Positions 6,392 to 41,593 of a stretch of 64,000 nucleotides of DNA are shown here, in pieces. The notes beneath the pieces are model-generated. The model was not told the DNA's origin, ran no database searches, and saw only the letters and a program-made list of their open reading frames with translations. The stretch comes from an uncultured Candidatus Saccharibacteria bacterium (GTDB lineage Bacteria > Patescibacteriota > UBA1384 > XYA2-FULL-43-10 > 1-14-0-10-43-13): NCBI GenBank assembly GCA_964543385.1, contig CAZIYE010000001.1, positions 551,123 through 615,122 on the forward strand, read 5' to 3'. The position numbers and the translations under genes are program-made. Position 1 is the stretch's first letter. Every line of letters starts with the position of its first letter.

Positions 6392-6411
6392 TTGATACTT
6401 GGCAGGGAAAG

Positions 6412-7176: not shown

Positions 7177-7241
7177 CGATTTTCTCCTTATGCTTTCTTC
7201 AGCTGGTGGGATGATCCCATCGTCAGCTTAAAAACTTGCTA

Positions 7242-7270: not shown

Positions 7271-7273
7271 AGA

Positions 7274-7302
7274 TTGAAGAAAGAGTCCCCTTATGCTAGA
7301 TT
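7274..7302 (+). promoter_or_regulatory. Putative promoter for hppA (TTGAAG-17-TAGATT)
   Basis: Divergent from the lipoprotein promoter, about 100 nt upstream of the hppA ATG. Confidence 0.3.
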
Positions 7303-7400
7303 ATGCTTAATATATAAGGTCAAAAGTTTGTAAAGCAACTCAAAAGAGTGCTTTATGAGCTTTTTACTTTATAACTTTATTAACCAATCGGGAGTTTTCC

Positions 7401-9503: not shown

Positions 9504-9513
9504 TTGAGACAAT

Positions 9514-9533
9514 GGCTCCGCGAATGCGGGGCC
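9514..9533 (+). terminator. GC-rich hairpin after hppA (GGCTCCGC-gaat-GCGGGGCC)
   Basis: 8-bp stem including one G-U pair, followed by a U-containing tail. Weak-to-moderate terminator. Confidence 0.35.
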
Positions 9534-9563
9534 ATCTCTTACATATTTAAAGATAGTGGAAAT

Positions 9564-9836
9564 ATGACTAAGAAGATAATATTGCCTGTTGCAGCCTTGT
9601 TGCTCTCGGTAATTATCTTTTTGTCATATCAATATTTCAGAGATTATCAGACAAAAGAACAGGAAGAACAGTACGAAAAACAGACTTGTGCCAAAGAGGG
9701 AGAAGAAACTTTTGAACTGGTCGCTGACGCTAATCCTAGAAATTGTTGCGCAGGGCTAAAACCTTTTCGTGATTCAGAAACCCGTCCAGATGGTAGCTCG
9801 TGGATTTCAGGGACAGAGATATGTGTTAAGAATTAA
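9564..9836 (+). CDS. Small secreted/membrane-anchored Cys-containing protein (hypothetical)
   Basis: Internal Met start MTKKIILPVAALLLSVIIFL (signal/anchor) with GGAAAT upstream. The C-terminal part carries 4 Cys. Confidence 0.35.
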   Translation: MTKKIILPVAALLLSVIIFLSYQYFRDYQTKEQEEQYEKQTCAKEGEETFELVADANPRNCCAGLKPFRDSETRPDGSSWISGTEICVKN

Positions 9837-9849
9837 TTTATAAAGCTAA

Positions 9850-10104
9850 TTGCCAATGAAAACAGAACGAAGCAACAAAATCAGGTTCATCTTCGGTAGC
9901 GCTATTATTCTAATGGCAGTTCTTATTCTTTATAATGCTCTAAATAATGGTCCTAGCGATCACGCCTGGGCAAACTTTATGATTTTGACATTACTGGGAG
10001 TCAGTTGGTTCTTGCCTCCGGTCAAAGAAATGTCCTTGTGGCTGTTTCTAAGAATATTAGTTATCATGGTGATGGCTTTTACTGCCGGTTATATCTGGAG
10101 ATAG
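9850..10104 (+). CDS. Small two-TM membrane protein (hypothetical)
   Basis: Two hydrophobic helices. The stop overlaps the start of the next ORF (TAGATG). Confidence 0.3.
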   Translation: MPMKTERSNKIRFIFGSAIILMAVLILYNALNNGPSDHAWANFMILTLLGVSWFLPPVKEMSLWLFLRILVIMVMAFTAGYIWR

Positions 10105-24658: not shown

Positions 24659-27600
24659 ATGACTACAGAAGATGGGGACAAACCAATTGCGGTAGCCGAA
24701 AATCCCGCAGAAGGAAGCGAACTGGAGGAAATCGAAGCATCGGATACCGCTTTGCTGCACAGTGATTTTGATGTGGCTGTTTCTGAGGTTGTGAGTCGAC
24801 AGGAAATAGCGGCTGCAGTTTTTGATGAAGAACAAACCATTTTATCGCAGGCAAGCTCAACGGAAGAATTTATTGGAATTGAGAATGAGACAATCCCGAT
24901 CGAATTAGTGGCTAGTATCCAGGGGATTGAAAAATTATTTGAAGAAATTGACGTAATTGATATTAAGGAATTCCCATCACTGATCCTTAAAATCAAGATA
25001 CTTGCTGATGAAGCAAAAAAATTGCTCAAAAAGTCAGAGGATGGTCTTCAGGCTAGTGGAGGTGAACTTCTTGGTATTGAAAGTGAAATCAAGAAAAAAA
25101 CAACTACTCTGAGTGAGGAAAATGAAAAAGATTTTTGGGGAAAACTTTTCCGCATTGGAGAGCGCAGTTCGCTTAAGAAAGCAATAAAAGATTTGAAGGT
25201 CAAAGAAGGCAAAATTTCTACGATTAAAGATGATCAATTAGGCAGAAAAACTGATGCCGAAAAATTATTAAGAAAAGTTGAAAAATATCTTGATGATACC
25301 ATTGTCAAACTTGTCACTAAGATTTTCCAAAGTTTAAAAGCTGAAACTGAAAAAACTAGAGAAAAAATGACTGATCCGCGGCTAAGAGCTGGTATGAATG
25401 AGCAGCTCGTCGATTCAGAATTTTTACCACTTTTTGAGCAACTAAAATTAGAGGGGAAATATTTTAGCGATGAGGAGATATCCTTTTATCTGCAGCACAG
25501 AAAAGAAATTGCCAGAGACGGGATTCAAGATACGTATAGTATGTCAGCTGAAGATCGAGAAGCATATGAAGCCAAATTTGATCAAATCAGAAAATTAGAG
25601 GAAAGAAGTGGCTATAAATTATACTGGAAGTCAACGGCCCTGAGTCTCGATCCTGATCGAGGTTCGACACCAGATGAGAGATATGACGATATTTTCAAAT
25701 TGTTAACAGAAATAGGTTTGCGCCAAAAAGTTGATGCCGTTCTTGATCTTGTGGGTGATCTTGGTATAAGCACTGAAGCAAAAACGAAAATCTATACTGA
25801 AACGAAGAAGGAGTTCTTGGAATATTATTATAGTTATCAAGATCTAGATAAACGCCCAGACATTCAAGTCTACGCTGATTTTTGTGAAATGCCGGGAGAA
25901 TTGGGAAGATGGCAAACAACTAGGGATATTTGTATAGAGTCCGGCCTGATTGATGAGGCAACTTTCCATCAAGCCGAGGAAATACTAATAGACTATTTAC
26001 AGCAAAAATATCTTAGTAAAAAAGGTGGGGAACCAGATACACAAGTCGAACAGGTTTTTAACTTGGGTAATCCCGGGGTAATCCCCGTTCTTTATCAGTT
26101 TGTAGTTTTGCACGGTAGCCACTCAGGCGAACGGGCAATGAGGCGTCTTCTTACGCTAATAGACGAAAAATATTCCCACGAAGAGGTGCTACAGTCAACC
26201 AAAGATTTGCCAGGTGATGACCAAAAAATTTTTGAGTTGCTCCTTGATAAGGACTCATGTCTTAATAGATTTGCTAGAGAAAGCTATTTATGGACAATGT
26301 TTGGTTACCTGGGAGATCCAAAAAAAACTCTGAGGAATGAGGCATACACCCAGAAATTGCTTGATAGTGGATACCCAGAAGACAAAGCAGCCGAGTTTTT
26401 TACCGGTAGGTGGTGGGGGAAGGACTTACTTATCGGTTGCGTTGAAATTGCCGAGGTCTTGGGCATAGATAAGGAGATAATTATCGAAGATTATTTCAAA
26501 GACATCACTCGTTCAGTTTACCTTGAAAGTCCAGATTCTTTAGAGATTATTGGGTTAGTAGCAAAAGAGCTGGGAGTGCCAGCTCTAGAAATTTATCACC
26601 GCATTGAGTCTGAGATGGTGCGAAGTAAAGAAGATAAGCAAAGCGTTCATTCTCCGCAGGGCATTATTGAATCTTGCAGAGTTTTGTCTGACATTACCGG
26701 CGAAAGCTTGAAAGCTGTGGTTGATCGATACTATCCAATCAAGGCTATTCCAACGTATCAAGAAAAGTACGCTGAAATATTTGAGGAATTAGCACAGATA
26801 CTAGAGGTGCCAGTCGGCTCTCTTGTTTTAGAGAATCTCTTACCACAATTGTCATCCAAAAGGGGAGATAGAGGCGGACTCTATATTGTCAATAGCAAGG
26901 ATAAAAGAAATTTTTTATTCAATTCTGTTAGCTCTTTTTTACAAACCAATCCCGTACTTAGTTCCACAGAAGATTATTGCAAAATTTTCAACCTATTCGA
27001 TGAATTAAATAAAGATTGGTTGGGCTCTGATTTTGAAAAATTTTCTGATGAAGAAAAAGAGAAGATAAATTCAGGCAAAGTTGATCTTGCTAGATCCTTT
27101 GGAGAGATTTTAGCAAAAGGCGGAAATCGAGAAGAGATTATTCGGGCAATTCGGGCATTTGCTCCGGTTATATCTCTGGATGACTCAAAGTATGCTGAAA
27201 TATTTACTCTTTTGGCTGAAACAATGGAAATGGCTCCAGAGTCGTTGGTATCAGAAACGCTTATTTTCGACGAAAAGCTCGGACTTATTCTACCAAAAAT
27301 CAAAAAAAGTGACTCAAGGTGTTTGATCGGAAAGGCACTTTTTGAATTGGCCAAAACCGATCGAGTCCTAAGTTCTGCCAAAGAGATTAAAAAAGTTTTT
27401 AATGCTTTGTCGGCCCTCCAGTTGATTGGGGCAGAAGAAGATCCATCTGATGAAGAAATCAAGGTTATTTTTGAAACAAAGGAATACCTGATTGGCTATG
27501 TGAGGGAAAAAATGAAGAATGATCCAAATAAAATAGACATAATTGGAACACTTATTTCCCTCAAATCAGTTACCTTCCAAGACTTGTTGCTATTTTCATC

Positions 27601-30286
27601 TTTCCGAGAAGAATTTCCTGACTCGCAGACCTTTGAAAAGATTTTTTCGGATGGTTTAATTGCAATTGATCCTAATTTGCAGGAAATTTTTGATAATCCT
27701 AGGAAACTCGGCACAATGAGACCGCAAATTATTTCAAAAATTATCGATTATATTGAGGAGGCTTACAAGGGAGAGGAGATTGATAATGAAAAAATAGCCA
27801 AGGAACTTCTTTCTTTGCTGAATAATATTCGTCATATCTTCGAAAGTAGTGATTCCACGATTATAGAAAAGCGTTCTCTCTTCTTGGAGAAATATACTTT
27901 AGAAGATGCCAAAGATCCTGATTTTAAAATTGCAGTCGAATCATTAATGGAACAAGGGCTGTCATTGCACGAAGCGATTAAGCAGCTTGTTCAGGGTGAT
28001 TTTGAAGATATTTTAATCGCCTCTGGTAGTATTGATATGCAAAAACACTACAAAAAGAAGCTGAAAGACCCAAATATATCAGAAGAAGATCGGTTGGACT
28101 TAGAGAAAAAGCTTAAGTGGATGAAAGAGGCGTACCTACAAGCTGACCAGAGAAATAGAGAAATTTTTCAACGACTGCAGAGAGGGGGCCTGACAGAAGA
28201 GGAAAGAGCAGAAATTGCTTGTCCGCTAGCAACAAGTGTATCCCAAGTTGGTCCTCCAGATGTCACTTACCCGATCCTTGACCAAGGCACTCTATGTGAT
28301 GCTTTACTTGGTGAAATTGCTAAAGACCAGGAGAATAATCTTGGAGCTCATATTTCAAAAACAAGTCGTGTACCAGGAGATAGAAGTACTTTGGCTGGTA
28401 GATTGCCTTCTTATGGTAATCCTCATGGCACTCAGGTCAACCGTATCTATGGAGATGTCAGTGCTAATAAATATCAGTCATATGGACCGGATGGTACAGC
28501 AGAAACACACTTTCAGATGGGGCCAGCTCATCAATGCATTATGCTCGGTCTCCCCAGTACCGAAATATCTGCCATTGTTATTTCTGATACCTCCTTTCTT
28601 GCGGACCAAAAGAAGTACATTGCCATGAAAAACTTGTTTATTCCAATTCTCGATTCCAGTGGCAATAATCTCTGGACTCCTGAAGAGTTCGATCAAATGA
28701 AAATATTTTATTATGCGCTGAATTATAAGGGCTATCCCTTAGCCGTTATTGATAATGTTTATAAATATTATCTGGAACTAAATCAGACAACTGAGAAAAC
28801 AAAACATAATATTGTCTTGAATAAGGCCGTTGATTTGGTTAAAAAGCAGATAGAAAATGATGAACAAGGTTTTGAGGATTTGGCGGTGCTCGTTGACTTC
28901 TTGAAGAGCAATGATCTTAACACCAAGGATATTCAATGGTATGAGGAGGCAGATTTCGAGCAAGTGATGCAAATGGTTGAAGAAAATGTCGGCGCAAAAA
29001 ATCGTTGGAAAGCGAGGGATATACTCTTCATATATCCGGATGACCAAGCTAAAACTCATAGAACAATTGGCGATAGCGTTGATTATGAAAGGCAGATAAC
29101 GAGGCGTCCCCATGGTTTCATCGACTCATTTCTGGACGATCAGCTTGGATACATTTCCCCTGGAAATATAGATGAAAGACGAGCTGCCGAAGGCCACCTA
29201 ACAAGTTTAATGTTCCGCGATTCGATTTCAAGGCAGGCGCGAGAAGGCATAATTGTTGATGACGTGATTGAAACTGCAGAGTATATGACAGAAAAGAAGA
29301 AGGAGCTGATGGTCAAGATTTGGGAAGACGCATGGGAAGATATATTGAAGATGGATTCCATTGATAAAGCTATGGCGGGGCTTTATAAAAAGGCAATAAT
29401 CCCAGTTGTGACTGGTAGCGGTGGCCGAGGAGAGATAACGTTGGGCTCAGATTTGGATTATTCACTTCTAGTTGATGATGATCACTTGTTGGAAATACTT
29501 CCGGAGAGAACTGATCTAGCTCAATTTATTAAAGATCTTGGTAATTTTGTTAATAATGTTCTGGCCATATCAATTAATAAGTCTTTAGGTGAAGCGGGGA
29601 TCAGAGCTGATGCTGGATTGGCACGGAAAGACCGGCAACCGTTTAGCCTGATTAGTCGGATTCGGCAATTTGAGATTAATCCTTCTCAGGGCCGCCAGGA
29701 AGAAGAGCCGACTGAGATTATTAGTAATTATCCTCTTTTTGCAGAACACCAAGGGATTGTAGCTAAATGCAAGGAAGATCTGATTGTTCACAATCAATCT
29801 GCCCATCTACTAGACTCATATATTCTTCGAGATCTGGAAACTGGCTTTGGAAAGGCTTCTTTCACGGCTGAATTTGAGAAATTATATGCCTGTGCAGCAA
29901 GTGGAGAATTATTGCAAAAAATTAAAGAATCACTCCAGCGTTCGTTAGTCTTCAAAATTAACTATCTTCTCTTTTCTGCTTTTGACAAGGGAACTATAGA
30001 TCCGAGTGAGGCTAGTAAAATCCCTTCTGGAACGATTGATACAATTAATTTTCTTAAAGATCATAAAATTTTGACTGATCAAGAAGCGGAAATTTGTATT
30101 GAATTATGGGCAATCACTTACAAAATTAGATTTTTGGGGGAAGTATTCTCTCCAGAAGGTCAGAATGCAGATGAGCTCAAGAAGGTGAAGAATATTACAT
30201 TCAAACTAGATGATATATCCTTTGCCGAAAGAGTTCGCCTTTTCGATCTGCTTAAGCTTTTCAAGGATAATGTACTTTATAAATAG
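24659..30286 (+). CDS. Giant (1875 aa) cytoplasmic multidomain protein. N-terminal acidic/coiled-coil region, long alpha-helical repeat region, and a C-terminal GlnD/GlnE (DUF294)-type nucleotidyltransferase domain.
   Basis: No signal peptide or TM. Internal repeats YAEIFEELAQILEVP / YAEIFTLLAETMEMAP. C-terminal motif PVVTGSGGRGEITLGSDLDYSLLV matches the DUF294/GlnD consensus GSLGRGEQtLaSDqDnalif. No P-loop or kinase motifs. Confidence 0.6.
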   Translation: MTTEDGDKPIAVAENPAEGSELEEIEASDTALLHSDFDVAVSEVVSRQEIAAAVFDEEQTILSQASSTEEFIGIENETIPIELVASIQGIEKLFEEIDVIDIKEFPSLILKIKILADEAKKLLKKSEDGLQASGGELLGIESEIKKKTTTLSEENEKDFWGKLFRIGERSSLKKAIKDLKVKEGKISTIKDDQLGRKTDAEKLLRKVEKYLDDTIVKLVTKIFQSLKAETEKTREKMTDPRLRAGMNEQLVDSEFLPLFEQLKLEGKYFSDEEISFYLQHRKEIARDGIQDTYSMSAEDREAYEAKFDQIRKLEERSGYKLYWKSTALSLDPDRGSTPDERYDDIFKLLTEIGLRQKVDAVLDLVGDLGISTEAKTKIYTETKKEFLEYYYSYQDLDKRPDIQVYADFCEMPGELGRWQTTRDICIESGLIDEATFHQAEEILIDYLQQKYLSKKGGEPDTQVEQVFNLGNPGVIPVLYQFVVLHGSHSGERAMRRLLTLIDEKYSHEEVLQSTKDLPGDDQKIFELLLDKDSCLNRFARESYLWTMFGYLGDPKKTLRNEAYTQKLLDSGYPEDKAAEFFTGRWWGKDLLIGCVEIAEVLGIDKEIIIEDYFKDITRSVYLESPDSLEIIGLVAKELGVPALEIYHRIESEMVRSKEDKQSVHSPQGIIESCRVLSDITGESLKAVVDRYYPIKAIPTYQEKYAEIFEELAQILEVPVGSLVLENLLPQLSSKRGDRGGLYIVNSKDKRNFLFNSVSSFLQTNPVLSSTEDYCKIFNLFDELNKDWLGSDFEKFSDEEKEKINSGKVDLARSFGEILAKGGNREEIIRAIRAFAPVISLDDSKYAEIFTLLAETMEMAPESLVSETLIFDEKLGLILPKIKKSDSRCLIGKALFELAKTDRVLSSAKEIKKVFNALSALQLIGAEEDPSDEEIKVIFETKEYLIGYVREKMKNDPNKIDIIGTLISLKSVTFQDLLLFSSFREEFPDSQTFEKIFSDGLIAIDPNLQEIFDNPRKLGTMRPQIISKIIDYIEEAYKGEEIDNEKIAKELLSLLNNIRHIFESSDSTIIEKRSLFLEKYTLEDAKDPDFKIAVESLMEQGLSLHEAIKQLVQGDFEDILIASGSIDMQKHYKKKLKDPNISEEDRLDLEKKLKWMKEAYLQADQRNREIFQRLQRGGLTEEERAEIACPLATSVSQVGPPDVTYPILDQGTLCDALLGEIAKDQENNLGAHISKTSRVPGDRSTLAGRLPSYGNPHGTQVNRIYGDVSANKYQSYGPDGTAETHFQMGPAHQCIMLGLPSTEISAIVISDTSFLADQKKYIAMKNLFIPILDSSGNNLWTPEEFDQMKIFYYALNYKGYPLAVIDNVYKYYLELNQTTEKTKHNIVLNKAVDLVKKQIENDEQGFEDLAVLVDFLKSNDLNTKDIQWYEEADFEQVMQMVEENVGAKNRWKARDILFIYPDDQAKTHRTIGDSVDYERQITRRPHGFIDSFLDDQLGYISPGNIDERRAAEGHLTSLMFRDSISRQAREGIIVDDVIETAEYMTEKKKELMVKIWEDAWEDILKMDSIDKAMAGLYKKAIIPVVTGSGGRGEITLGSDLDYSLLVDDDHLLEILPERTDLAQFIKDLGNFVNNVLAISINKSLGEAGIRADAGLARKDRQPFSLISRIRQFEINPSQGRQEEEPTEIISNYPLFAEHQGIVAKCKEDLIVHNQSAHLLDSYILRDLETGFGKASFTAEFEKLYACAASGELLQKIKESLQRSLVFKINYLLFSAFDKGTIDPSEASKIPSGTIDTINFLKDHKILTDQEAEICIELWAITYKIRFLGEVFSPEGQNADELKKVKNITFKLDDISFAERVRLFDLLKLFKDNVLYK

Positions 30287-31728: not shown

Positions 31729-31784
31729 TTTGATATAGGCAAAAATGCCTTTCATTTTAATACAGCTTGGGATATATTTAAGCC

Positions 31785-32798
31785 ATGGATAGTGAACTCA
31801 AAAAATTAGTTCTCATTGACTCAAACGCGATCATTCATCGTGCTTATCATGCTTTGCCAAAGACTATGTCTACTAGAAAAGGTGAATTAACGAATGTAGT
31901 TTATGGTTATACCACAACACTCATAAAAGTTTTAGAAGATATAAAACCTGATTATATTGCTGCCTCTTTTGATATTTCCAAGGCGACATTTCGAACGCAG
32001 GAGTATGCTGAATACAAGGCGCATAGAGTGAAAGCCGACCAGGAATTATATGACCAAATACCAAGAGTGCGGCAACTTTTGGAAGTTTTGAATATTCCGA
32101 CATATGAGATGGAAGGCTTTGAAGCTGATGATTGTATCGGTACTATCTCCAATATGTTCGAAGAAAGAAGTCCTCAACAAAAGTTTAAAGGCTTCAAAGT
32201 ATATATTGTAACGGGGGATAAGGATGCCTTTCAGCTCATCGACGGGAACATATTCGTCTACGATCTTAAAAAGGGTCTCTCCGTCGCCCAAATCATTAAT
32301 AGAAAAGTGATTGAGATAGAATGGGCGCTACAGCCAGAGGATTTTATTGATCTAAAAGCACTGGCAGGAGATCCTTCGGATAACATTCCTGGAGTGCCAG
32401 GGATAGGCCCAAAAACAGCCATTGATTTGTTGCAAAGATTTGATACTTTAATAAAACTATATGAACAGATTGAATCAAGGGATTTAAATTCCGAGGATAG
32501 CAAACAATTTGATTTGACAGCCAAAGAGCTTAATCTAAAGCCCCGTATTCTCAAACTTCTTATTGACCACAAAGACCAAGCGTTTCTTTCCCAGCGTCTT
32601 GCTACTATCCGACGTGATGTACCGTTAGATTTCAATCTTGAAGATTGTAAATGGGGAGACTATGATAAGGAGAAGGTCCAGGATTTTTTTGAGGAAATGC
32701 AATTTCATTCATTGCTTCGGAGGTTTGGGGCAGAAAGAGCTGTAGAGCCGAAAACAAAAGAGCAAAAAGAAAAAGATGAGCAATTAAAGTTACTTTAA
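31785..32798 (+). CDS. 5'-3' exonuclease (FEN-like; Pol I N-terminal domain encoded as a separate ORF)
   Basis: LVLIDSNAIIHRAYHALP..., GDKDAFQL, HhH region GIPGVPGIGPKTAIDLL. 337 aa. Ends with a stop 14 nt before the polymerase ORF in another frame. Confidence 0.85.
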   Translation: MDSELKKLVLIDSNAIIHRAYHALPKTMSTRKGELTNVVYGYTTTLIKVLEDIKPDYIAASFDISKATFRTQEYAEYKAHRVKADQELYDQIPRVRQLLEVLNIPTYEMEGFEADDCIGTISNMFEERSPQQKFKGFKVYIVTGDKDAFQLIDGNIFVYDLKKGLSVAQIINRKVIEIEWALQPEDFIDLKALAGDPSDNIPGVPGIGPKTAIDLLQRFDTLIKLYEQIESRDLNSEDSKQFDLTAKELNLKPRILKLLIDHKDQAFLSQRLATIRRDVPLDFNLEDCKWGDYDKEKVQDFFEEMQFHSLLRRFGAERAVEPKTKEQKEKDEQLKLL

Positions 32799-32812
32799 AG
32801 TCAAAAAATACT

Positions 32813-34081
32813 ATGTCACAGTCAATAATAGAAAAAGCTAAAGTGATGGGCATCACAATTCCTTCTGCAACATCAGAAGATATTAATGAACAGATAAAGC
32901 CTGTTTTGCGAAAAATGGAGCTAGCAGGTATTAGAATCGATACAGCGGTTTTCAAAAGTTTAGAGGATACTTTGAGCGAAAGAGTAGAGGAGCTAGAGCT
33001 TGAGATTATTAAATTAGCTGGAGTTGAGTTTAATATCGGTTCCCCCATTCAGATGGCAGAAGTATTATTTGAGAAATTGAATCTTCCAACCGATGATCTC
33101 AAAAAAACAAAGACGGGCATCTCTACTGCAGCTAGTGAGCTCAAAAAGATTCAGGATAATCATCCGATAGTTTCTTTAATTATTGAGCAAAGAGAGCTTT
33201 CTAAGCTAATTTCGACTTATCTAAAACCAATGCCAATCTTAGTCGATGAAAACTCGAGACTCCACACTACTTATGGTCTTGAAACATCCACTGGCAGAAT
33301 TAATTCATCTGAGCCGAACTTACAGAATATTCCAATAAGGGGCAAATATGGTATGGAGATTAGAAAAGCCTTTATCGCTTCTCCTGGAGCTAAACTAATT
33401 TCTGCTGACTATTCCCAGATAGAGCTAAGGATAGTTGCATGTCTAGCTGATGACAAAAATATGATCGCATCTTTCCAGAATGGAGAAGATATTCATAGCA
33501 GGACAGCCTCTGAAATATTTGAAGTTCCTTTGCCCAAGATCACAAAGGATCAAAGACGGGTAGCTAAAGCTGTCAATTTTGGTATAGTCTATGGTCAAAC
33601 ACCTTTTGGTCTCTCTCAGGCTTTAGGTATAGAGACCTCGAAGGCTGCTGAATACATTATGCACTACTTCGACATACATAAAGGTATTAAGGATTATATT
33701 AATAAAATGATTCAGCAGGCTCATAAGGAGGGTTATGTAGAAACTCTCTTCGGTATGAGAAGATATCTGCCGAATATCAACTCGAGAATCAGATATATTG
33801 CAGAGGGTGAAGAAAGAATGGCAATAAACACTCCTGTTCAGGGGACAGCATCCGAGATCATCAAATTAGCAATGATCAAGCTAGATAGCGAGTTGTCTTC
33901 AAAATATCCAGAGGCTAAAATGCTTTTAACAGTTCATGATGAACTAGTGGTGGAAGTTCCAGAAAAAGATGTAAAAAAGGTTGCGAGTGTGGTTAAAGAA
34001 CTTATGGAAGGTGTAATCAAGCTTTGCATTCCATTAGAAGCAAGCGTGGGTATCGGTAATAATTGGGCTGCAACAAAGTAA
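32813..34081 (+). CDS. polA: DNA polymerase I polymerase domain (family A), lacking any 3'-5' exonuclease domain
   Basis: Motif A LISADYSQIELRIVA, motif B RRVAKAVNFGIVYGQ, motif C VHDELVVEV. 422 aa starting at the thumb/N-terminal polymerase region. Confidence 0.85.
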   Translation: MSQSIIEKAKVMGITIPSATSEDINEQIKPVLRKMELAGIRIDTAVFKSLEDTLSERVEELELEIIKLAGVEFNIGSPIQMAEVLFEKLNLPTDDLKKTKTGISTAASELKKIQDNHPIVSLIIEQRELSKLISTYLKPMPILVDENSRLHTTYGLETSTGRINSSEPNLQNIPIRGKYGMEIRKAFIASPGAKLISADYSQIELRIVACLADDKNMIASFQNGEDIHSRTASEIFEVPLPKITKDQRRVAKAVNFGIVYGQTPFGLSQALGIETSKAAEYIMHYFDIHKGIKDYINKMIQQAHKEGYVETLFGMRRYLPNINSRIRYIAEGEERMAINTPVQGTASEIIKLAMIKLDSELSSKYPEAKMLLTVHDELVVEVPEKDVKKVASVVKELMEGVIKLCIPLEASVGIGNNWAATK

Positions 34082-34129: not shown

Positions 34130-35083
34130 ATGATTTATTTTATTTACGGTGAAGATAACTTTCGGTCGTCTCTTGCTCTCAAAAAAATTGAGACAGATTT
34201 TGTTAAAGAACATGGCGATCTTAACATCGAGAAACTTGACGGGGACAATCTGAGAGCAGATGTCCTGGAGGCGAAGGTCTCAGCATTGCCGTTTCTAGGG
34301 GATAAAAGATTAATAATAATAAATAATTTTCTGACAGCCGGAAAAAAAGAAGAAAAAGAACGGATTGTACAAGTTATAAAATCAATCCCGGAGACATCTG
34401 ATTTAGTCTTCTTTGAGAATATCTTGCCAGATCGAAGAGAGAGCATCTTTAAAGTTCTTGATAAATTACCCTTCAAACAATTTTTTCCACAGTTAGATGA
34501 TTTTGGCCTAAAACAGTGGATAGTAGAGAGAATTAGTCAGCAAAATTTTGGAATATCTAGCTCGGCCTGCGCTCGCCTCATAGCTTATGTTGGTTCCGAT
34601 CTTTTCCGGCTTCAAAATGAGATCGCCAGACTCATTGATTTTGTAAGATCAGATAACAGAAGCCAAATAGAGGATCAAGATGTAAATAATCTCATAGAAC
34701 CCAACAATAACTATAAGATTTTTGATCTTACCGATGCGATTGCACAAAAAAATATTAATAAAGCAATCATGGTTCTGCATGCATTCAAAAAATCAGGGGA
34801 GGACGATTATCGTATTTTTAACCTTATCGTCCACCAAATACGGACAATGCTTGTTATTAATGATTTTTCAAAAAAAATGACTGGAGATCAAATGGCGAAA
34901 GAAGCGGGTATCCATCCATTTGTTGTGAAAAAAACGATGGCAAACTTAAGAAATTTCCCTAAAAGTGAATTAATTAAGATGTATTCTAGGTTAGAAGAGA
35001 TTGATTGGAAGTCGAAAAATGGTATTGCGGATATTGCCATAATGACAGAGCTGCTTATAGTAGATTTCTGCAGAAAGTGCTAA
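34130..35083 (+). CDS. holA: DNA polymerase III delta subunit
   Basis: MIYFIYGEDNFRSSLALKKI...LNIEKLDGDN...KRLIIINNFL. 317 aa with HolA-like architecture. Confidence 0.7.
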   Translation: MIYFIYGEDNFRSSLALKKIETDFVKEHGDLNIEKLDGDNLRADVLEAKVSALPFLGDKRLIIINNFLTAGKKEEKERIVQVIKSIPETSDLVFFENILPDRRESIFKVLDKLPFKQFFPQLDDFGLKQWIVERISQQNFGISSSACARLIAYVGSDLFRLQNEIARLIDFVRSDNRSQIEDQDVNNLIEPNNNYKIFDLTDAIAQKNINKAIMVLHAFKKSGEDDYRIFNLIVHQIRTMLVINDFSKKMTGDQMAKEAGIHPFVVKKTMANLRNFPKSELIKMYSRLEEIDWKSKNGIADIAIMTELLIVDFCRKC

Positions 35084-35118
35084 AATAATTAGTAAGTAGA
35101 AGACTAGGGAGGGAGATC

Positions 35119-36600
35119 TTGGCCCAGCAGAAAAATAACATGAGCGTAGTTTCTTTTGGGTTTTATTGGAAAAAACTCCTGTTTTTTGGATGTTTTTTTC
35201 TGATGGCAATTTGGGGAATAGATTCTATAAGTAGTATCAAAGCTGACAGTGGCGATTTTGACTATGCAGTATATTCTGAAAATCCTGCTTCTAATATTCA
35301 AATAAAGCCAAACGGCAAGGTAGTTGTAGGAGAAAATAAGACCTCTATTAAGCTCTCTATAATGGAGGATTTTGATGAACTCAGAACACCGGTCTTGGAC
35401 AAGCCAGGCATTTACATGGATGAATTTGTGGTTAATCTAAGCTTGCCTGAAGATGTTGCCAACAAGGTTAGTTTCGAAGTCCTTGGAATCCACGGCGTTG
35501 ATAGCACGGAGTCATACATCTCTGATTCTAAAACCATCGTATATAAAGCCTATGGTGTTGGCCCTTCAGCGACAATCTCAATAATAGCGAAACTCCCAAA
35601 AGGAGTGGTCGGCTACAGCTTGATGGATAATGCCTTATTCGCCCTAAGACAGTTGGGGCCGAAACAATGGATAATACTTAGTATACTTGTACCTCTAATG
35701 GCTATTGTTATAATGATTTGGGTTATAGCGAAGCAGTTAGCTTCGGATAAAGTTGAGATTCCTGATAAGGAGATAGATTGTCCTCCAATGGCGTTACCAC
35801 CGGCAATAGTCGGGGCGCTATACCATCAGAAGGTTACTTCTAGAGAGATAGCAGCCACCCTCATTGATCTGGCCATAAGGGGAAATATCTATATCATGGA
35901 TAGGGAAAGAGATTTCGCCTTTGCTAAAAACAATTTTGATAAGCGTTTAATATCCTACGAGAAGATACTTCTGTCGAAGATTTTCAGTGAGCATGTATTC
36001 TCAAACAAAGAGGATATTGAAAAGAGAATCAATGATCATCTGTACAGCAAAAAGATATCCTTATTTACTTCGGGTGTTTATAACTTATCTACCAGATTAG
36101 GCTATTTCAAAACGAACCCCCAGAATATTCATTCCAAATATAGACTTGTTTGTCTTCTTATCTTATTTGTTTCTTTGGGTGGATTTCTTGTGAGCTTCGG
36201 TTTTACCGATTATCCTTATCTTTCATTTATATGGATTGGATTGATGATAACCGCTCTTGTTATTGCTTCACTAGCTCAGAAGATCCCTATGAGGGCTCCA
36301 ATGGGCCGTGAAGCTTTGAGCAATTGGCTAGCATTTAGAAAATTTCTCACTTCTAAAGACAGAATTCCTTTCTCATTAAACAATGTTGAAAGTTTTGAGA
36401 AATATCTACCTTATGCTATGGTGCTTGATTGCGAAGTTGCCTGGGCTAAGAGATTTTCGGAGGAAAGCTTTGCAATTCCTAGGTGGTTTATCTCTAGTAA
36501 AGATGGTTTTAGCTTACAGGACTTTTGTCTCTCGTTGTTTCCGATAGTTTCGTATATTTCAAGGAGTTTAGCTTCGGTAAGAGAACCTGGTTTTGAATAA
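35119..36600 (+). CDS. DUF2207-like membrane protein (signal peptide, extracytoplasmic beta domain, TM, cytoplasmic segment, C-terminal TM pair)
   Basis: Topology and the motif CPPMALPPAIVGALYH resemble the DUF2207 conserved PP..L.PA.VG.L segment. Confidence 0.45.
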   Translation: MAQQKNNMSVVSFGFYWKKLLFFGCFFLMAIWGIDSISSIKADSGDFDYAVYSENPASNIQIKPNGKVVVGENKTSIKLSIMEDFDELRTPVLDKPGIYMDEFVVNLSLPEDVANKVSFEVLGIHGVDSTESYISDSKTIVYKAYGVGPSATISIIAKLPKGVVGYSLMDNALFALRQLGPKQWIILSILVPLMAIVIMIWVIAKQLASDKVEIPDKEIDCPPMALPPAIVGALYHQKVTSREIAATLIDLAIRGNIYIMDRERDFAFAKNNFDKRLISYEKILLSKIFSEHVFSNKEDIEKRINDHLYSKKISLFTSGVYNLSTRLGYFKTNPQNIHSKYRLVCLLILFVSLGGFLVSFGFTDYPYLSFIWIGLMITALVIASLAQKIPMRAPMGREALSNWLAFRKFLTSKDRIPFSLNNVESFEKYLPYAMVLDCEVAWAKRFSEESFAIPRWFISSKDGFSLQDFCLSLFPIVSYISRSLASVREPGFE

Positions 36601-36612
36601 TAATCTTTCAAT

Positions 36613-37161
36613 ATGGGAAACGATAGTTTTTTAGCTAAAATTTTATATGGCAGTGTCGCAATTTTTGATCTGGCAAAATGGCTAATTTTGGTTTTGATAA
36701 TTTTAAGTTTGATCAATGCTTTTTTTGTGGGTGTGTTTGTCGTTGACGGCGAATCCATGCATCCGAGTTTTAAAGATAAGGAGCTTGTTTTTTGGAATAA
36801 AGGCATATATAAAGACAGTAAACCTGAGAGAGGAGACATAGTTGTCGTCCAATACCCAGGCGATCCTAAACATAAGGTTTATGTTAAGAGAGTTGTTGGT
36901 CTGCCTGGCGAACGCGTAGAGATAAAGAGTGGCAAAATCTACATAAACAACAAGCTCTATCGGGAGAAATACTTAAATCAAAGCTTGTTAACCGAACCAA
37001 GTGGTGTGTGGATATCAAAAAGTAATGAGTATTTTGTAATGGGTGATAACAGGCCAAACTCAAACGATTCAAGATTTTTCGGATCTATAGAAAAACGTTT
37101 TGTTTTAGGAAAAGCTCTCGGTGTGATATTCCCGAGGTTCCGTGTCGTAGACGATATCTAA
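36613..37161 (+). CDS. lepB: Signal peptidase I
   Basis: Catalytic Ser box VDGESMHPSF, Lys box VKRVVGLPGE, and C-box GDNRPNSNDSRFFG. Confidence 0.9.
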   Translation: MGNDSFLAKILYGSVAIFDLAKWLILVLIILSLINAFFVGVFVVDGESMHPSFKDKELVFWNKGIYKDSKPERGDIVVVQYPGDPKHKVYVKRVVGLPGERVEIKSGKIYINNKLYREKYLNQSLLTEPSGVWISKSNEYFVMGDNRPNSNDSRFFGSIEKRFVLGKALGVIFPRFRVVDDI

Positions 37162-39034: not shown

Positions 39035-41593
39035 TTAAACTAATTCTTTATAGACATTATAATTTATAGCGATCGTTTTCAATCTTTGCAACCCTTGGCT
39101 TGTCAGATCGTCAATTGAATGAATGCCAAAAAGTTGTAAAACATCATAAAGATTATATTTAGGTAGTTCGCTCAATGCCTCTGTAAGATTAGTAGTTTCT
39201 TCTTTAGACAACTTCTCGGCGTCAATATAAACCTTGCTTTTTAGGGGGTCGGTTCCTGATGGTCGAAAATCCAATTCGATGATAGCAGGGCCTAAATTGT
39301 TCTCATCTCCGAAGATCAAAGGAGTCCCTTCTGGTCTTGTTCTCCCCCCAGAGAGGGGCTCCTCATTCAAAGTCGTAAATCTGATTCTAGACCATAATGA
39401 TCTGTAATTTGGTAAAGCCATAGATAGAATATCTTTTACTTTGTCTAATCCGATATGCCCATCACGAACAGCTTTACTAATTGAAAAGAAAAAATTATTA
39501 AAGTTAGTCTTTAGATCGCTGCATTCTGCAAAAGCCTCATGTTGCTTCTTGAACGGAAGTTGAGCAATATAACCCTGATCTCCATGCAAAATGTCAATTC
39601 TAATATCAATTTTTGACTTCAAGTCGTATTTCTTAAAACCTTGATCAATAAGATTCAAGTAAGAGTAATCTCCTAAAAAGTTATTTTCCTTTAGATATAA
39701 TTCAGAGGAACGTGTAAGCTCTGAGAAAAGGGAATCCGCTGCACTTTTCTCTGGCATTGCCAATGTGTTTTTACCGAAGATGTTATAGCAATCATGGTTT
39801 AGACCAGCGACTCTACCGCCGCTTTCCTCGCTCTTAGCGTGTATCCTTATTGATTTATCCTTGTTTAAGATTATCTTATGACCAAGCTGATCAGTAAATT
39901 CACATTCATTGTCTGAATTCTTATTGAAATACCAATTTTCGATCACTTGTTGCATTTCAGACAGGTTCTTAAAGCCGACTCTCTCCATGAAATTTTCGAG
40001 ACCTACAACTGAGTTAGCAAATTCTGCCCATGCTCTTGTCGATACGTAGGTCGTCAAATAAACCGAGTGATATTTGTCCCATGTACCGTTTTGTTTCATT
40101 CTCTCATAATCAGCAATGTCGAGAAGCAAAAACTCCTTATTCGGTGTCGGAGCAACTAGGATCTTGTCATTATCTAAAATATAATAATCGATGCCGTATT
40201 CGGTAATAAGCCTTCTGTTATTTTCTGTATCGTCAACAACTTGTTTTACTACGAATCTGTCAGAATCTGGGTCACATTCATAAATTTTTATTCCTGTTTG
40301 ATACTTTTTTAATAAATCGCTATAAGGGATAGTCTCAGCAATTTTTTTCATTGTTGTATCAACGCCAAGATGATCAACACTGTAGATCTCAGATCCCGGA
40401 GAACCACCGGTTTTTATAATAATATAGCCCACATTGAAAAATTGGTCTTCTTCGGGATAAATAAGATCGAAAACATCTTTATCCACACCAAGTTTTTCCA
40501 TTAAGGGTTTAAGAGTTCTCCAAGTAGATCCGTTAAGAGGGTTTAAAAGTATTTTATGGCCGTTTTCTGTCGCCTTATTAATTAGATTGACATCATCCGG
40601 AGTCACATTTAAAGCTATACGATAGAGAGTTGTCATTCTATCGTAGGTAAGAGTTTTTTTGATGTTCTTGTGATTTGCTGCTGCTATTGTTACCGAATGC
40701 CCGCCTTCTGCATATATTTTTTGTTCAATAATTTTACGCAAAATTCGGCGGTAATCTTCATATTTATCGGGCAAAAGTTGTGCGCCACCAATGCCCAGAG
40801 CTTTTCTTCCGCACATATAATTAGAACTGTGGCTTGATGAATAATATGTTGATCCAGCGGCTCCAAGTAAGTGAGTTAAAAGCGATATTACTGTTATAGT
40901 CGAACTATCTGAAAAATCACTTGTTGTAATAACGGTGATTCCTTTTTCGGCAAGAATCCTTGATTCAAACTCGATAAATTTGGCTGTATGAGGTCTGACT
41001 TCACCGCTGATAATTTTGACTATGTTATCTTTGACAAAGGGTAATATTTTTTCGAGAGACAATCCATAGATATCTTCTACAATCTCTATTGTTTCTTTGT
41101 CTATTGTCTCTCTTAGCCATTTTGTATGAAGGGTAAAGCCAGGATCATCTTTTTCTATTTGCTCGAGGTTAGTCCTGATCTCATCATGAATCTGTACTAA
41201 AAACTCGGCCTCAGCTTCAACTAAAAGAGTTAAAAATAAGTCGTTGTACATCATGTTGGGATTTTCGCTGTGCAAAATATCCACAAAAGCTCTTATTCCG
41301 GCGGTTGATGCATCCGACTTCTTGTCAAATTCTTTCAAATGTTCGGAAAGATTATACAGATCAGCGAGTTCCGGTGTAACATTTACATCAAAAGCCTCTT
41401 TCTTATCTAAGTCAAAAATTGGCTTGAAAGATATATCATTAGTAGATTCAGCCCACATTTCGTTGTATTTTTGGATTATCGTTTCTCTGAGTCGGAGTTG
41501 GTTCTTCTGAATTTCACCCATTTGTCCGCTATTTTGTGCGGCAAATAAGTCCTTTAACTCCTGTTGGGATAGAGGGGTAACCTTGGCTTCCAT
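39035..41593 (-). CDS. Expanded, divergent alpha-D-phosphohexomutase (PGM/PMM) superfamily protein
   Basis: Metal loop CDPDSDRFVV (consensus DPDADR), phosphate-binding loop RPSGTDPLKSKVYIDAE (consensus RPSGTEP), and a degenerate Ser loop SSSHSSN (consensus TASHNP). 852 aa with an N-terminal extension and insertions. Confidence 0.45.
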   Translation of the reverse strand: MEAKVTPLSQQELKDLFAAQNSGQMGEIQKNQLRLRETIIQKYNEMWAESTNDISFKPIFDLDKKEAFDVNVTPELADLYNLSEHLKEFDKKSDASTAGIRAFVDILHSENPNMMYNDLFLTLLVEAEAEFLVQIHDEIRTNLEQIEKDDPGFTLHTKWLRETIDKETIEIVEDIYGLSLEKILPFVKDNIVKIISGEVRPHTAKFIEFESRILAEKGITVITTSDFSDSSTITVISLLTHLLGAAGSTYYSSSHSSNYMCGRKALGIGGAQLLPDKYEDYRRILRKIIEQKIYAEGGHSVTIAAANHKNIKKTLTYDRMTTLYRIALNVTPDDVNLINKATENGHKILLNPLNGSTWRTLKPLMEKLGVDKDVFDLIYPEEDQFFNVGYIIIKTGGSPGSEIYSVDHLGVDTTMKKIAETIPYSDLLKKYQTGIKIYECDPDSDRFVVKQVVDDTENNRRLITEYGIDYYILDNDKILVAPTPNKEFLLLDIADYERMKQNGTWDKYHSVYLTTYVSTRAWAEFANSVVGLENFMERVGFKNLSEMQQVIENWYFNKNSDNECEFTDQLGHKIILNKDKSIRIHAKSEESGGRVAGLNHDCYNIFGKNTLAMPEKSAADSLFSELTRSSELYLKENNFLGDYSYLNLIDQGFKKYDLKSKIDIRIDILHGDQGYIAQLPFKKQHEAFAECSDLKTNFNNFFFSISKAVRDGHIGLDKVKDILSMALPNYRSLWSRIRFTTLNEEPLSGGRTRPEGTPLIFGDENNLGPAIIELDFRPSGTDPLKSKVYIDAEKLSKEETTNLTEALSELPKYNLYDVLQLFGIHSIDDLTSQGLQRLKTIAINYNVYKELV

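What the first reader, a model, noticed from the sequence alone, without database searches (positions are those of the whole stretch)
31785..34081. DNA polymerase I encoded as two ORFs (5'-3' exonuclease and polymerase) with the 3'-5' proofreading domain entirely absent
The exonuclease ORF of 337 aa ends at 32798. The polymerase ORF of 422 aa starts at 32813 in a different frame and begins right at the polymerase thumb. There is no sequence at all for a 3'-5' exo domain. Either this is a natural split, which is known in some reduced genomes, or a frameshift. Either way the organism lacks Pol I proofreading, which is relevant for mutation rate in a reduced genome.
Basis: partly seen in the sequence, partly recalled or inferred. 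Interest (0 to 1): 0.5.

Follow-up and report, generated by a model that had tools for sequence, protein, structure and literature searches.

The report
Naturally split, proofreading-less DNA polymerase I
This small-genome (Patescibacteria/CPR) bacterium and more than a hundred sequenced relatives make DNA polymerase I as two separate proteins, a flap nuclease and a bare polymerase, with the proofreading domain deleted, and the nuclease always ends in a short motif that looks like a handle for the DNA sliding clamp.

Summary
ORF 31785-32798 (337 aa) is a complete 5'-3' exonuclease (FEN). ORF 32813-34081 (422 aa) is a complete family-A polymerase domain. They lie 14 nt apart in different frames, and no 3'-5' exonuclease domain is present anywhere in the 64 kb window.

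It is a natural split, not a frameshift. Two independent assemblies carry the same arrangement, one of them read through an identical junction. The 120 closest polymerase homologues are all 414-464 aa polymerase-only proteins, and the 120 closest FEN homologues are all standalone. In three relatives, two unrelated genes sit between the halves. Catalytic motifs are intact in both proteins, and both give confident structure models.

New here: 115 of 120 standalone FENs end exactly in QLxLL after a variable tail. This has the form of the experimentally shown Mycobacterium tuberculosis Pol I clamp-binding motif QLSLL. Related CPR Pol I proteins, both canonical and fused exo-less, carry Qxx[LF]F-type motifs at the same position, just after the FEN domain.

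I infer, but have not shown, that the FEN is tethered to the beta clamp while the polymerase acts as a separate gap-filler. This is a new variant of a known kind, of moderate interest.

The parts
31785..32798 (+). Standalone 5'-3' exonuclease / flap endonuclease (FEN), 337 aa, derived from the N-terminal domain of Pol I
   Evidence: Pfam PF02739 (aa 7-164) and PF01367 (aa 183-296). The best NCBIfam match is Pol I model positions 1-295 (310.7 bits), ahead of the standalone-exonuclease models. It aligns to M. tuberculosis/M. smegmatis-type Pol I residues 21-314 and to Taq residues 13-292. Acidic active-site residues are present: D12, D63, E113/D115/D116, D145/D147, D196/D199. AF2 model: pLDDT 88.5, pTM 0.85.
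32727..32780 (+). Variable, charged, probably flexible tail of the FEN (aa 315-332, ...GAERAVEPKTKEQKEKDE)
   Evidence: Length and sequence vary among 28 aligned homologues. pLDDT falls to 65-75 over the last 27 residues (aa 311-337). The tail corresponds to the FEN-to-Klenow linker of Taq.
32781..32795 (+). C-terminal pentapeptide QLKLL (aa 333-337), a putative beta-clamp-binding motif
   Evidence: 115 of 120 homologues end exactly in QLxLL, 2 have near variants and 3 look truncated. D331, Q333, L334, L336 and L337 are invariant in alignment A3. It has the same form as the experimentally defined M. tuberculosis Pol I clamp motif 457-QLSLLDD-463 (bioRxiv 10.64898/2026.09.19.751633). Qxx[LF]F-type motifs occupy the equivalent post-FEN position in 45/59 fused exo-less and 45/58 canonical CPR Pol I proteins. 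Binding has not been shown.
32799..32812 (+). 14-nt intergenic spacer between the two genes; there is no room for a domain remnant and no terminator-like site
   Evidence: The sequence is identical in the independent assembly L001.
32813..34081 (+). Polymerase-only family-A DNA polymerase, 422 aa (the Pol I polymerase domain without any 3'-5' exonuclease domain)
   Evidence: Pfam DNA_pol_A, aa 46-419. Pol I model positions 488-888. Aligns to Taq 433-831. AF2 model pLDDT 91, pTM 0.86. Foldseek matches Bst large fragment and KlenTaq with TM(query) 0.82-0.91; the best entries (e.g. 3po4, 1xwl, 3eyz) have rmsd 1.6-1.9 A over about 400 columns. TM(target) is only 0.65-0.71; these large-fragment chains are 115-160 residues longer than the query, and I attribute the difference to their exonuclease(-like) domain.
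32813..32881 (+). Conserved N-terminal segment of the polymerase (aa 1-23; clade consensus M..L.EKAEKLGIKIPxITxEEIN)
   Evidence: The start position and this sequence are conserved among the 40 polymerase-only homologues printed out of 120. pLDDT is lower here, 60-76. Its function is unknown. From my recollection of the E. coli sequence, not tested here, it may be a remnant of the last helix of the lost exonuclease domain.
33404..33430 (+). Polymerase motif A (ADYSQIELR, aa 198-206; catalytic D199)
   Evidence: Invariant in alignment A1.
33554..33595 (+). Polymerase motif B (RRVAKAVNFGIVYG, aa 248-261; R248, K252, F256, Y260)
33932..33943 (+). Polymerase motif C (VHDE, aa 374-377; catalytic D376/E377)
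34130..35083 (+). holA (DNA polymerase III delta subunit, clamp-loader component), the conserved downstream neighbour
   Evidence: Pfam PF06144 and PF21694. holA follows the polymerase gene directly in four of the six relatives' loci (L083-L086). In L087 and L088 it lies 2.5 kb and 0.9 kb downstream, after inserted genes.

Best explanation
The two ORFs are the functional, anciently separated halves of this lineage's Pol I. One is a Pol I-derived flap endonuclease. The other is a polymerase-only enzyme from which the whole 3'-5' exonuclease domain has been deleted.

Shown:
- Both genes are intact, with complete catalytic motifs and confident folds.
- The architecture is fixed across a monophyletic clade of Patescibacteria (Berkelbacteria-like).
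- The genes stay in one replication-gene neighbourhood (FEN, 0-2 inserted genes, pol, then holA directly or after inserted genes). In the window there is no terminator-like site between FEN and pol.

Inferred mechanism:
- The polymerase does gap filling and strand displacement without proofreading in cis, as Taq, Bst and the engineered Klenow sub-fragment HoLaMa do.
- The FEN removes the displaced RNA/DNA flaps.
- Without a covalent tether, the two activities are probably coordinated through the beta sliding clamp. The FEN ends in a strictly conserved QLxLL pentapeptide on a flexible tail. This is the position where related CPR Pol I proteins carry Qxx[LF]F-type clamp-binding-like motifs.
- The gene was therefore most likely cut just downstream of an ancestral clamp-binding motif. 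The result is a clamp-tethered FEN, functionally like archaeal/eukaryotic FEN1 on PCNA, plus a free gap-filling polymerase.
For: ORFs and domains.

Not an artefact:
- The junction is identical in the independent Logan assembly L001, and L002 shows the same gene order.
- 120/120 best polymerase hits are 414-464 aa with PF00476 only.
- 120/120 best FEN hits are standalone.
- Intervening genes lie between the halves in L083 (acetyltransferase + DUF1653), L084 (hypothetical + NUDIX) and L085 (methyltransferase + NUDIX). Spacers are 1, 5 and 89 nt in L088, L086 and L087.
- The polymerase N-terminus is conserved in position and sequence.
- The split clade is monophyletic in a neighbour-joining tree, with bootstrap 90 when P0124 is included.

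No exonuclease domain: the profile search is negative in the window and in L001, L002, L003 and L083-L088, and positive in controls.

Functionality: motifs A/B/C and the FEN acidic residues are intact. AF2 pLDDT is 91 and 88.5. The model superposes on Bst/KlenTaq at TM about 0.9. The engineered exo-less Klenow fragment HoLaMa is folded and active, with 10-fold lower catalytic efficiency (PMC6457538).

Clamp-motif inference:
- 115/120 FENs end in QLxLL, after a tail that varies in sequence and length and has lower model confidence.
- QLSLL is a structurally validated clamp motif in M. tuberculosis Pol I.
- 45/59 fused exo-less proteins (Kazan-type) have Qx[SP][FL]F in the FEN-pol linker. The L003 subgroup has E[MIV][SA]LPL.
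- 45/58 canonical CPR Pol I proteins have Q[GD]xF[ED]F, QQGLF and similar motifs just after the FEN domain.
- Background frequencies in random windows of the same proteins are 1.2% and 3.1%.
- A motif present in covalently fused proteins cannot be needed to dock FEN onto the polymerase. This favours the clamp as the partner.
Against: - No binding data exist, and no complex model could be made with the tools available. dnaN is not in the window, so its binding pocket could not be examined.
- The sequences counted for motif conservation are related to each other, so the enrichment statistics overstate independence.
- QLKLL ends in Leu rather than the classical Phe.
- The polymerase half shows no recognisable Q-type clamp motif, so how it is recruited is unexplained.
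- Deep nodes of the polymerase tree are unresolved (bootstrap 4-13). The order of events (exonuclease loss first, then split) and the number of independent losses are therefore not established.
- Only 64 kb of a roughly 671 kb contig was available. A trans-acting 3'-5' exonuclease elsewhere in the genome cannot be excluded.
Confidence: 0.85

Rival explanations
1. The split is a sequencing or assembly frameshift, or a very recent pseudogenising mutation, in a gene that is really one fused FEN-polymerase ORF.
For: The two ORFs are only 14 nt apart in different frames. Fused exo-less Pol I proteins of 700-770 aa do exist in other CPR lineages (L003, Kazan).
Against: - The junction is identical in an independent assembly.
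- Fusion would need an indel in a 16-nt stretch without homopolymers.
- All 120 nearest homologues of each half are separate proteins.
- Unrelated genes are inserted between the halves in three relatives.
- The C-terminus of the FEN and the N-terminus of the polymerase are each conserved as termini.
Confidence: 0.02
2. The conserved QLxLL C-terminus of the FEN is not a clamp-binding motif. Instead it is a docking peptide that re-assembles a non-covalent FEN-polymerase heterodimer, possibly onto the conserved polymerase N-terminal segment, or it binds another partner such as SSB, ligase or a protease adaptor.
For: Both new termini created by the split are conserved. The genes are co-transcribed neighbours. 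The polymerase half has no clamp motif of its own, so a direct FEN-pol contact would solve its recruitment.
Against: Equivalent Qxx[LF]F or QxxFxF motifs sit at the same post-FEN position in proteins where FEN and polymerase are already covalently joined. No docking peptide is needed in those proteins. The motif matches the clamp consensus and the validated QLSLL of M. tuberculosis Pol I.
Confidence: 0.12
3. The 422-aa polymerase is not the Pol I orthologue. It would be an accessory or mobile-element family-A polymerase (phage-like, PolA3/CCPol-like) that happens to lie next to a solo FEN.
For: Polymerase-only and exo-truncated family-A enzymes are known from T7-like phages and staphylococcal mobile elements (PMC10201439).
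Against: - The best models are the Pol I equivalogs (551.8 and 532.8 bits). The next-best hit, a 'bifunctional 3'-5' exonuclease/DNA polymerase' model, scores 245.6 bits, and phage DpoZ scores 138.6 bits.
- It nests among CPR Pol I sequences in the tree.
- The chromosomal synteny with holA, a DUF2207 gene and the signal peptidase gene is conserved (ribosomal protein S20 follows in three relatives).
- No phage genes were seen among the large ORFs scanned in the window.
Confidence: 0.03

Closest known systems
Canonical bacterial DNA polymerase I (PolA1; E. coli PolA, Taq, Bst)
   Same: The FEN domain and the polymerase domain are orthologous, with all catalytic motifs. The polymerase model superposes on Bst/KlenTaq at TM about 0.9. 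Like Taq, Bst and about half of Pol I orthologues, it has no proofreading activity (PMC12926913).
   Different: It is two polypeptides instead of one. The 3'-5' exonuclease domain is physically deleted, not merely inactivated. Each half scores below the NCBIfam Pol I cut-off.
Fused exo-less Pol I of other CPR lineages (candidate division Kazan / Patescibacteria, 700-770 aa; e.g. L003, P0428)
   Same: The 3'-5' exonuclease domain is likewise completely absent. These proteins are FEN plus a short linker plus the polymerase. A clamp-binding-like motif follows the FEN domain.
   Different: They remain a single polypeptide and their motif is internal (QxSFF, QxSLF or EMSLPL). Here the gene is cut right after the motif, which becomes the C-terminus (QLKLL). 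The tree does not resolve whether the two forms share one loss event.
[quoted passage not shown]
   Same: A polymerase domain on its own. HoLaMa is folded and active, which shows that the architecture is viable.
   Different: HoLaMa is artificial and 10-fold less efficient than Klenow. The CPR enzyme is natural, conserved across a clade, and has its own conserved N-terminal segment of about 20 residues.
Archaeal/eukaryotic FEN1 bound to PCNA through a C-terminal PIP box
   Same: A standalone flap endonuclease with a short hydrophobic clamp-type motif (Q-x-x-hydrophobic-...) on a flexible C-terminal tail, separate from the gap-filling polymerase. This is an analogy in how it works.
   Different: The nuclease lineage is different (bacterial Pol I-type FEN), the clamp is different (beta versus PCNA) and the motif consensus is different. 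Binding has not been demonstrated here.
Clamp-binding motifs in family-A polymerases: M. tuberculosis Pol I 457-QLSLLDD-463 (bioRxiv 10.64898/2026.09.19.751633) and actinobacterial PolA2/APEX QSSLF (PMC12926913)
   Same: The same pentapeptide type (QLxLL, QxSLF) in or near a disordered segment of a Pol I-family protein.
   Different: Those motifs lie inside the (vestigial) 3'-5' exonuclease region. They were reported as restricted to Mycobacteriales or to PolA2. Here the motif follows the FEN domain and occurs in CPR bacteria.
Solo 5'-3' exonucleases (E. coli Xni/ExoIX, Mycoplasma and Bacillus solo FENs) and T7-like phage polymerases with a split-off exonuclease
   Same: Pol I-type activities are encoded on separate genes (PMC3021548; PMC12926913; PMC10201439).
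   Different: The FEN here matches the Pol I N-terminal region better than the solo-FEN equivalog models (310.7 versus 245.3 bits, and below their cut-offs). In T7-like phages the exonuclease persists as a neighbouring gene. Here no 3'-5' exonuclease gene is found in the window or in relatives' loci.

Membership tests
Bacterial DNA polymerase I (PolA1, NCBIfam NF004397 / TIGR00593) | Family-A polymerase domain with catalytic motifs A (DYSQIELR), B (RRxAKxxNFGxxYG) and C (HDE) | tested here: met
   PF00476, E 6.7e-143. Motifs lie at aa 198-206, 248-261 and 374-377 and are invariant in A1. The fold matches Bst/KlenTaq.
Bacterial DNA polymerase I (PolA1, NCBIfam NF004397 / TIGR00593) | [quoted passage not shown] | tested here: not met
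   The FEN is a separate ORF that ends with TAA at 32796-32798. The polymerase ORF starts at 32813 in another frame.
Bacterial DNA polymerase I (PolA1, NCBIfam NF004397 / TIGR00593) | Central DnaQ-like 3'-5' exonuclease domain (active DEDDy or an inactivated vestige) | tested here: not met
   Neither ORF hits PF01612 or PF22619 at E<=0.01. Pol I model positions 296-487 are uncovered. A custom profile has no hit at E<=10 in the six-frame translation of the window.
Bacterial DNA polymerase I (PolA1, NCBIfam NF004397 / TIGR00593) | Whole-protein score above the curated equivalog cut-off (720 / 600 bits) | tested here: not met
   310.7 and 303.1 bits for the FEN; 551.8 and 532.8 bits for the polymerase.
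Standalone bacterial 5'-3' exonuclease / FEN (NCBIfam NF011547, Xni NF007017) | PF02739 + PF01367 architecture with conserved acidic metal-binding residues and no polymerase domain | tested here: met
   Residues D12, D63, E113, D115, D116, D145, D147, D196 and D199 are invariant in A3.
Standalone bacterial 5'-3' exonuclease / FEN (NCBIfam NF011547, Xni NF007017) | Score above the curated equivalog cut-offs (305 bits for NF011547; 261 bits for Xni) | tested here: not met
   245.3 and 137.3 bits. The protein is closer to the Pol I N-terminus (310.7 bits). It is therefore a Pol I-derived FEN, not an Xni/ExoIX paralogue.
Beta-sliding-clamp client proteins (clamp-binding motif QL[SD]LF / QLxLxL type) | Pentapeptide or hexapeptide matching the consensus | tested here: met
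   QLKLL at aa 333-337. It has the same form as the validated QLSLL of M. tuberculosis Pol I.
Beta-sliding-clamp client proteins (clamp-binding motif QL[SD]LF / QLxLxL type) | Motif located at a terminus or in a flexible, poorly conserved segment, and itself conserved | tested here: met
   The motif is at the extreme C-terminus, after a linker of variable length. It is conserved in 115/120 homologues. Tail pLDDT is 65-75.
Beta-sliding-clamp client proteins (clamp-binding motif QL[SD]LF / QLxLxL type) | Physical binding to the hydrophobic pocket of DnaN | not testable with these tools
   No complex prediction or binding assay was available, and dnaN is not in the window.
Split family-A polymerases with a separately encoded proofreading exonuclease (T7-like phages, PMC10201439) | A 3'-5' exonuclease gene retained next to the polymerase-only gene | tested here: not met
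   No hit for the exonuclease profile in the 64 kb window, nor in the roughly 9 kb loci of six relatives. The genes between FEN and pol in relatives are acetyltransferase, DUF1653, NUDIX and methyltransferase genes.

The most novel reading that the evidence does not exclude
In this CPR clade, Okazaki-fragment maturation would be organised as in archaea and eukaryotes. A standalone flap endonuclease rides on the sliding clamp through a C-terminal QLKLL motif, and a separate, proofreading-less polymerase fills the gaps. This would derive from an ancestral, previously unrecognised clamp-binding motif in the FEN-to-Klenow linker of CPR Pol I. The same kind of motif also appears in some Chloroflexi, Bacteroidales and Saccharibacteria Pol I proteins. 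Current literature states that Pol I clamp motifs are confined to Mycobacteriales and PolA2.
Probability: 0.55. Interest if true: 0.65.

Novelty: new variant of a known kind. Interest (0 to 1): 0.5.

Why it matters
- It shows that a bacterial lineage can dispense with the physical 3'-5' exonuclease domain of Pol I, not just with its activity. That domain is usually kept as a structural vestige even when inactive. The same lineage has also severed the covalent link between flap cleavage and gap filling.
- The polymerase-only proteins are natural, evolved counterparts of engineered minimal polymerases such as HoLaMa. They could be useful as compact enzymes.
- The conserved clamp-type motif on the nuclease gives a directly testable hypothesis for how nick translation is coordinated without a tether.
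- If the motif is real, beta-clamp use by Pol I-family proteins is far more widespread than currently stated.
- For annotation, these gene pairs should not be flagged as frameshifted or partial polA.

Tried and rejected
It returned mostly distant full-length Pol I proteins from many phyla rather than the close relatives. It was still useful for controls and for finding the fused exo-less L003.
- The first tree script timed out. The neighbour-joining tree resolves the split clade but not the deep nodes, so I do not claim an order of events or a number of independent losses.
- The representative-library search gave only the top 150 clusters, and several short entries are probably gene fragments. 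I did not use their lengths as evidence.
- My FEN profile often stopped aligning at position about 232. I re-anchored linkers on the last FEN helix with a regular expression. This is approximate.
- Rfam and tRNA scans of the window found nothing.
- Promoter-like and terminator-like sites are not above shuffled expectation, so I make no regulatory claims beyond the absence of a terminator-like site in the 14-nt spacer.
- No conserved Q-type clamp motif was found in the polymerase half. A resemblance of its N-terminal LGIKIP to MutL-type motifs was considered and dropped as too weak.
- Programmed frameshifting to make a fused protein was rejected, because spacer length and frame differ among relatives and genes are inserted between the halves.
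- Literature searches for a prior description of this CPR architecture found none. The held library is incomplete, so this is not proof of absence.
Full report
**1. The observation.** The window has two adjacent plus-strand ORFs: 31785-32798 (337 aa) and 32813-34081 (422 aa). They are in different frames and separated by 14 nt.
- Pfam finds the two 5'-3' exonuclease/FEN domains in the first ORF and only DNA_pol_A in the second.
- Against the 889-position NCBIfam Pol I model, the first ORF covers positions 1-295 and the second covers 488-888.
- The second ORF aligns from residue 24 to Taq Pol I residue 433.
- The roughly 190 positions that form the 3'-5' exonuclease domain are missing, and a 14-nt spacer leaves no room for a remnant.
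- A profile I built from the FEN-to-polymerase middle regions of 33 canonical relatives finds nothing at E<=10 in the six-frame translation of the whole window. The same profile detects the domain in control Pol I proteins of Patescibacteria, Pseudomonas and Paenibacillus.

The polymerase starts about 20 residues before the first helix of the polymerase domain, not literally at the thumb.

**2. Split or frameshift.** In the polymerase frame a stop lies 12 codons upstream of the ATG. Only an indel within about 16 nt lacking homopolymers could fuse the ORFs.
- The junction is base-for-base identical in an independent Logan assembly (L001). A second assembly (L002), which starts within the last 39 codons of the nuclease gene, shows the same gene order.
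- The 120 best homologues of the polymerase (55-100% identity) are all 414-464 aa with only PF00476. Where a source names them, the name is Patescibacteria, Candidatus Berkelbacteria or simply 'bacterium'.
- The 120 best homologues of the nuclease are all standalone proteins of 269-398 aa.
- In six relatives whose loci I fetched, the two genes are always separate. The spacers are 1, 5 and 89 nt in three of them. In the other three, two unrelated genes are inserted: acetyltransferase + DUF1653, hypothetical + NUDIX, and methyltransferase + NUDIX.
- The polymerase N-termini are conserved in position and sequence, M..L.EKAEKLGIKIPxITxEEINxQIKPVLR.
- The split clade is monophyletic in a neighbour-joining tree of polymerase domains, with bootstrap 90 when P0124 is included.

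This is an old, fixed, lineage-wide gene split, not an error or a fresh pseudogene.

**3. Are the halves functional?**
- Polymerase motifs A (ADYSQIELR), B (RRVAKAVNFGIVYG) and C (VHDE) are intact and invariant in the clade.
- The FEN keeps all acidic metal ligands that align with Taq and mycobacterial Pol I.
- AlphaFold models are confident: polymerase pLDDT 91 and pTM 0.86; FEN pLDDT 88.5 and pTM 0.85.
- The polymerase model superposes on Bst large fragment and KlenTaq with query-normalised TM 0.82-0.91. The closest entries have rmsd 1.6-1.9 A. The target-normalised TM is about 0.66-0.71. These chains are 115-160 residues longer than the query, which I attribute to their exonuclease-like domain.
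- An engineered Klenow sub-fragment without the exonuclease domain (HoLaMa) is folded and active, with 10-fold lower catalytic efficiency (PMC6457538). The architecture is therefore biochemically plausible.

**4. Context.** The genes lie in an ordinary chromosomal region of a low-GC (about 38%) small-genome bacterium.
- A cation-efflux gene lies upstream. It is followed by a terminator-like hairpin at 31737-31750, which is a weak consensus match.
- Downstream come holA (Pol III delta subunit), a DUF2207 membrane protein and signal peptidase.
- Relatives keep this order, with extra genes before holA in two of the six (L087, L088).
- There is no terminator-like site between FEN and polymerase. 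Neither dnaN nor dnaQ is among the large ORFs of the window.

**5. Wider distribution of architectures.** Other CPR lineages show the following.
- Canonical Pol I with a recognisable 3'-5' exonuclease domain: L006, L009, Buchananbacteria and WS5, about 900-980 aa.
- Forms whose middle domain gives a Pfam hit below threshold (L005) or none (Saccharibacteria L045 and L080).
- A sizeable clade of fused FEN-polymerase proteins of 700-770 aa with no exonuclease domain. These are named Patescibacteria or candidate division Kazan.

Physical loss of the domain is therefore recurrent or old within CPR. The split form is one outcome. The tree cannot order these events, because deep-node bootstraps are only 4-13.

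**6. A conserved motif at the cut.**
- All seven FENs first examined end in [KRQ]D[DEK]QL[KQ]LL.
- Across the 120 homologues, 115 end exactly in QLxLL, and 51 of these end in KDEQLKLL. Two have near variants and three look truncated.
- The preceding linker varies in length and sequence, and the tail has reduced model confidence.
- This is the signature of a short linear motif. Its form is that of the beta-clamp-binding pentapeptide. The M. tuberculosis Pol I motif QLSLL was recently shown by cryo-EM, crystallography and binding assays to occupy the canonical clamp pocket (bioRxiv 10.64898/2026.09.19.751633).
- In the fused exo-less clade, 45 of 59 proteins carry Qx[SP][FL]F (QTSLF, QSSFF, QPSFF, QVSLF) in the short FEN-polymerase linker. 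The L003 subgroup carries E[MIV][SA]LPL.
- In canonical CPR Pol I, 45 of 58 carry Q[GD]xF[ED]F, QQGLF or similar motifs 15-25 residues after the last FEN helix.
- Random 45-aa windows of the same proteins match in 1.2% and 3.1% of cases. The sequences are related, so these are conservation statements rather than independent events.
- Because the motif also exists where FEN and polymerase are covalently joined, a role in FEN-polymerase docking is unlikely. Clamp binding is the most economical reading.

I conclude that the ancestral gene was cut immediately downstream of a clamp-binding-like motif. This is an inference.

**7. Proposed mechanism.**
- Shown: there are two intact enzymes, no cis proofreading, and a conserved terminal motif.
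- Inferred: the FEN is tethered by QLKLL to beta clamps left on DNA. The polymerase-only enzyme extends the upstream fragment and displaces the primer. The clamp-bound FEN cuts the flap, and ligase seals the nick. This arrangement is functionally analogous to FEN1 on PCNA.
- How the polymerase is recruited is not explained. No Q-type motif is conserved in it, and the role of its conserved N-terminal segment of about 20 residues is unknown.

**8. Comparison with what is known.**
- Solo FENs and Pol I lacking one domain are known (PMC3021548; PMC12926913).
- About half of Pol I orthologues have an inactivated exonuclease site, so loss of Pol I proofreading is not unusual in itself.
- What differs here is three things together: complete physical deletion of the domain, a fixed split, and a clamp-type motif on the FEN.
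- The 2026 survey of bacterial polymerases does not mention CPR. It calls PolA2 the first bacterial family-A polymerase with an identified clamp motif.
- The mycobacterial study reports its motif as restricted to Mycobacteriales.
- I found no paper describing the CPR architecture or a clamp motif after the FEN domain, within the limits of the held library.

**9. Verdict.** The open alternative is settled in favour of a natural, lineage-wide split. On its own this is a modestly interesting variant of Pol I in a reduced genome. The conserved clamp-type tail raises the interest, because it gives a concrete, testable mechanism and hints at unrecognised clamp use by Pol I-family proteins.
- Confidence in the split and loss being real and functional: about 0.9.
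- Confidence in the clamp-tether mechanism: about 0.55-0.6.

Noticed in passing
Loci L063, L019, L039, L045; proteins P0131, P0146, P0167, P0195, P0199, P0236, P0270: Outside the split clade, 12 of 127 FEN-bearing Pol I proteins from diverse phyla carry a strict clamp-binding-like pentapeptide within 40 aa after the FEN domain. Random windows match in 1.2% of cases (binomial p = 5e-8). Examples are Chloroflexia QLSLF, Caldilineae QLPLF, Bacteroidales QGSLF and Saccharibacteria QAELF. The FEN-Klenow linker may be an unrecognised clamp-binding site in some bacterial Pol I proteins.
   Followed up: partly
window 24659-30286 (+): A very large ORF of 1875 aa lies two genes upstream of the FEN (the cation-efflux gene is between them). 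The collection's precomputed table records no Pfam family for it. Its function is unknown.
   Followed up: no
window 39035-41593 (-) and 58185-59525 (+): ORFs of 852 aa and 446 aa have no Pfam match at E<=1e-5.
   Followed up: no
window 6001-10000: GC content rises to 0.42-0.47 against about 0.38 elsewhere. The region holds a membrane H+-pyrophosphatase gene (7401-9503; PF03030, E 1.2e-268). This could be a compositional effect or a horizontal acquisition.
   Followed up: no
window 1-64000: There is no tRNA, rRNA or any Rfam family at gathering threshold in 64 kb.
   Followed up: no
window 32120-32190 and 32460-32540 (FEN aa ~123-136 and ~226-250); alignment A3 columns 155-206 and 301-375: The standalone FENs carry two hypervariable, low-complexity insertion sites. 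One follows the GTI...FEE helix and one lies between the H3TH region and the last helices. Their length ranges from 0 to more than 60 residues among close relatives.
   Followed up: no
L084 3496-3939, L085 3477-4004: In two relatives a NUDIX hydrolase gene sits directly upstream of the polymerase-only gene. In L085 it overlaps the polymerase start by 4 nt. This may be a nucleotide-pool sanitising partner for a proofreading-less polymerase. That idea is speculative.
   Followed up: no
window 32813-32881; proteins P0001-P0040: The first ~20 residues of the polymerase-only proteins (EKAEKLGIKIPxIT) are conserved but modelled with lower confidence (pLDDT 60-76). No function is assigned.
   Followed up: partly
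window 34130-37161 and loci L083-L088: The gene string pol - holA - DUF2207 membrane protein - signal peptidase I is conserved (ribosomal protein S20 follows in three relatives' loci). It holds across relatives with 59-68% polymerase identity, although two relatives have extra genes between pol and holA.
   Followed up: partly
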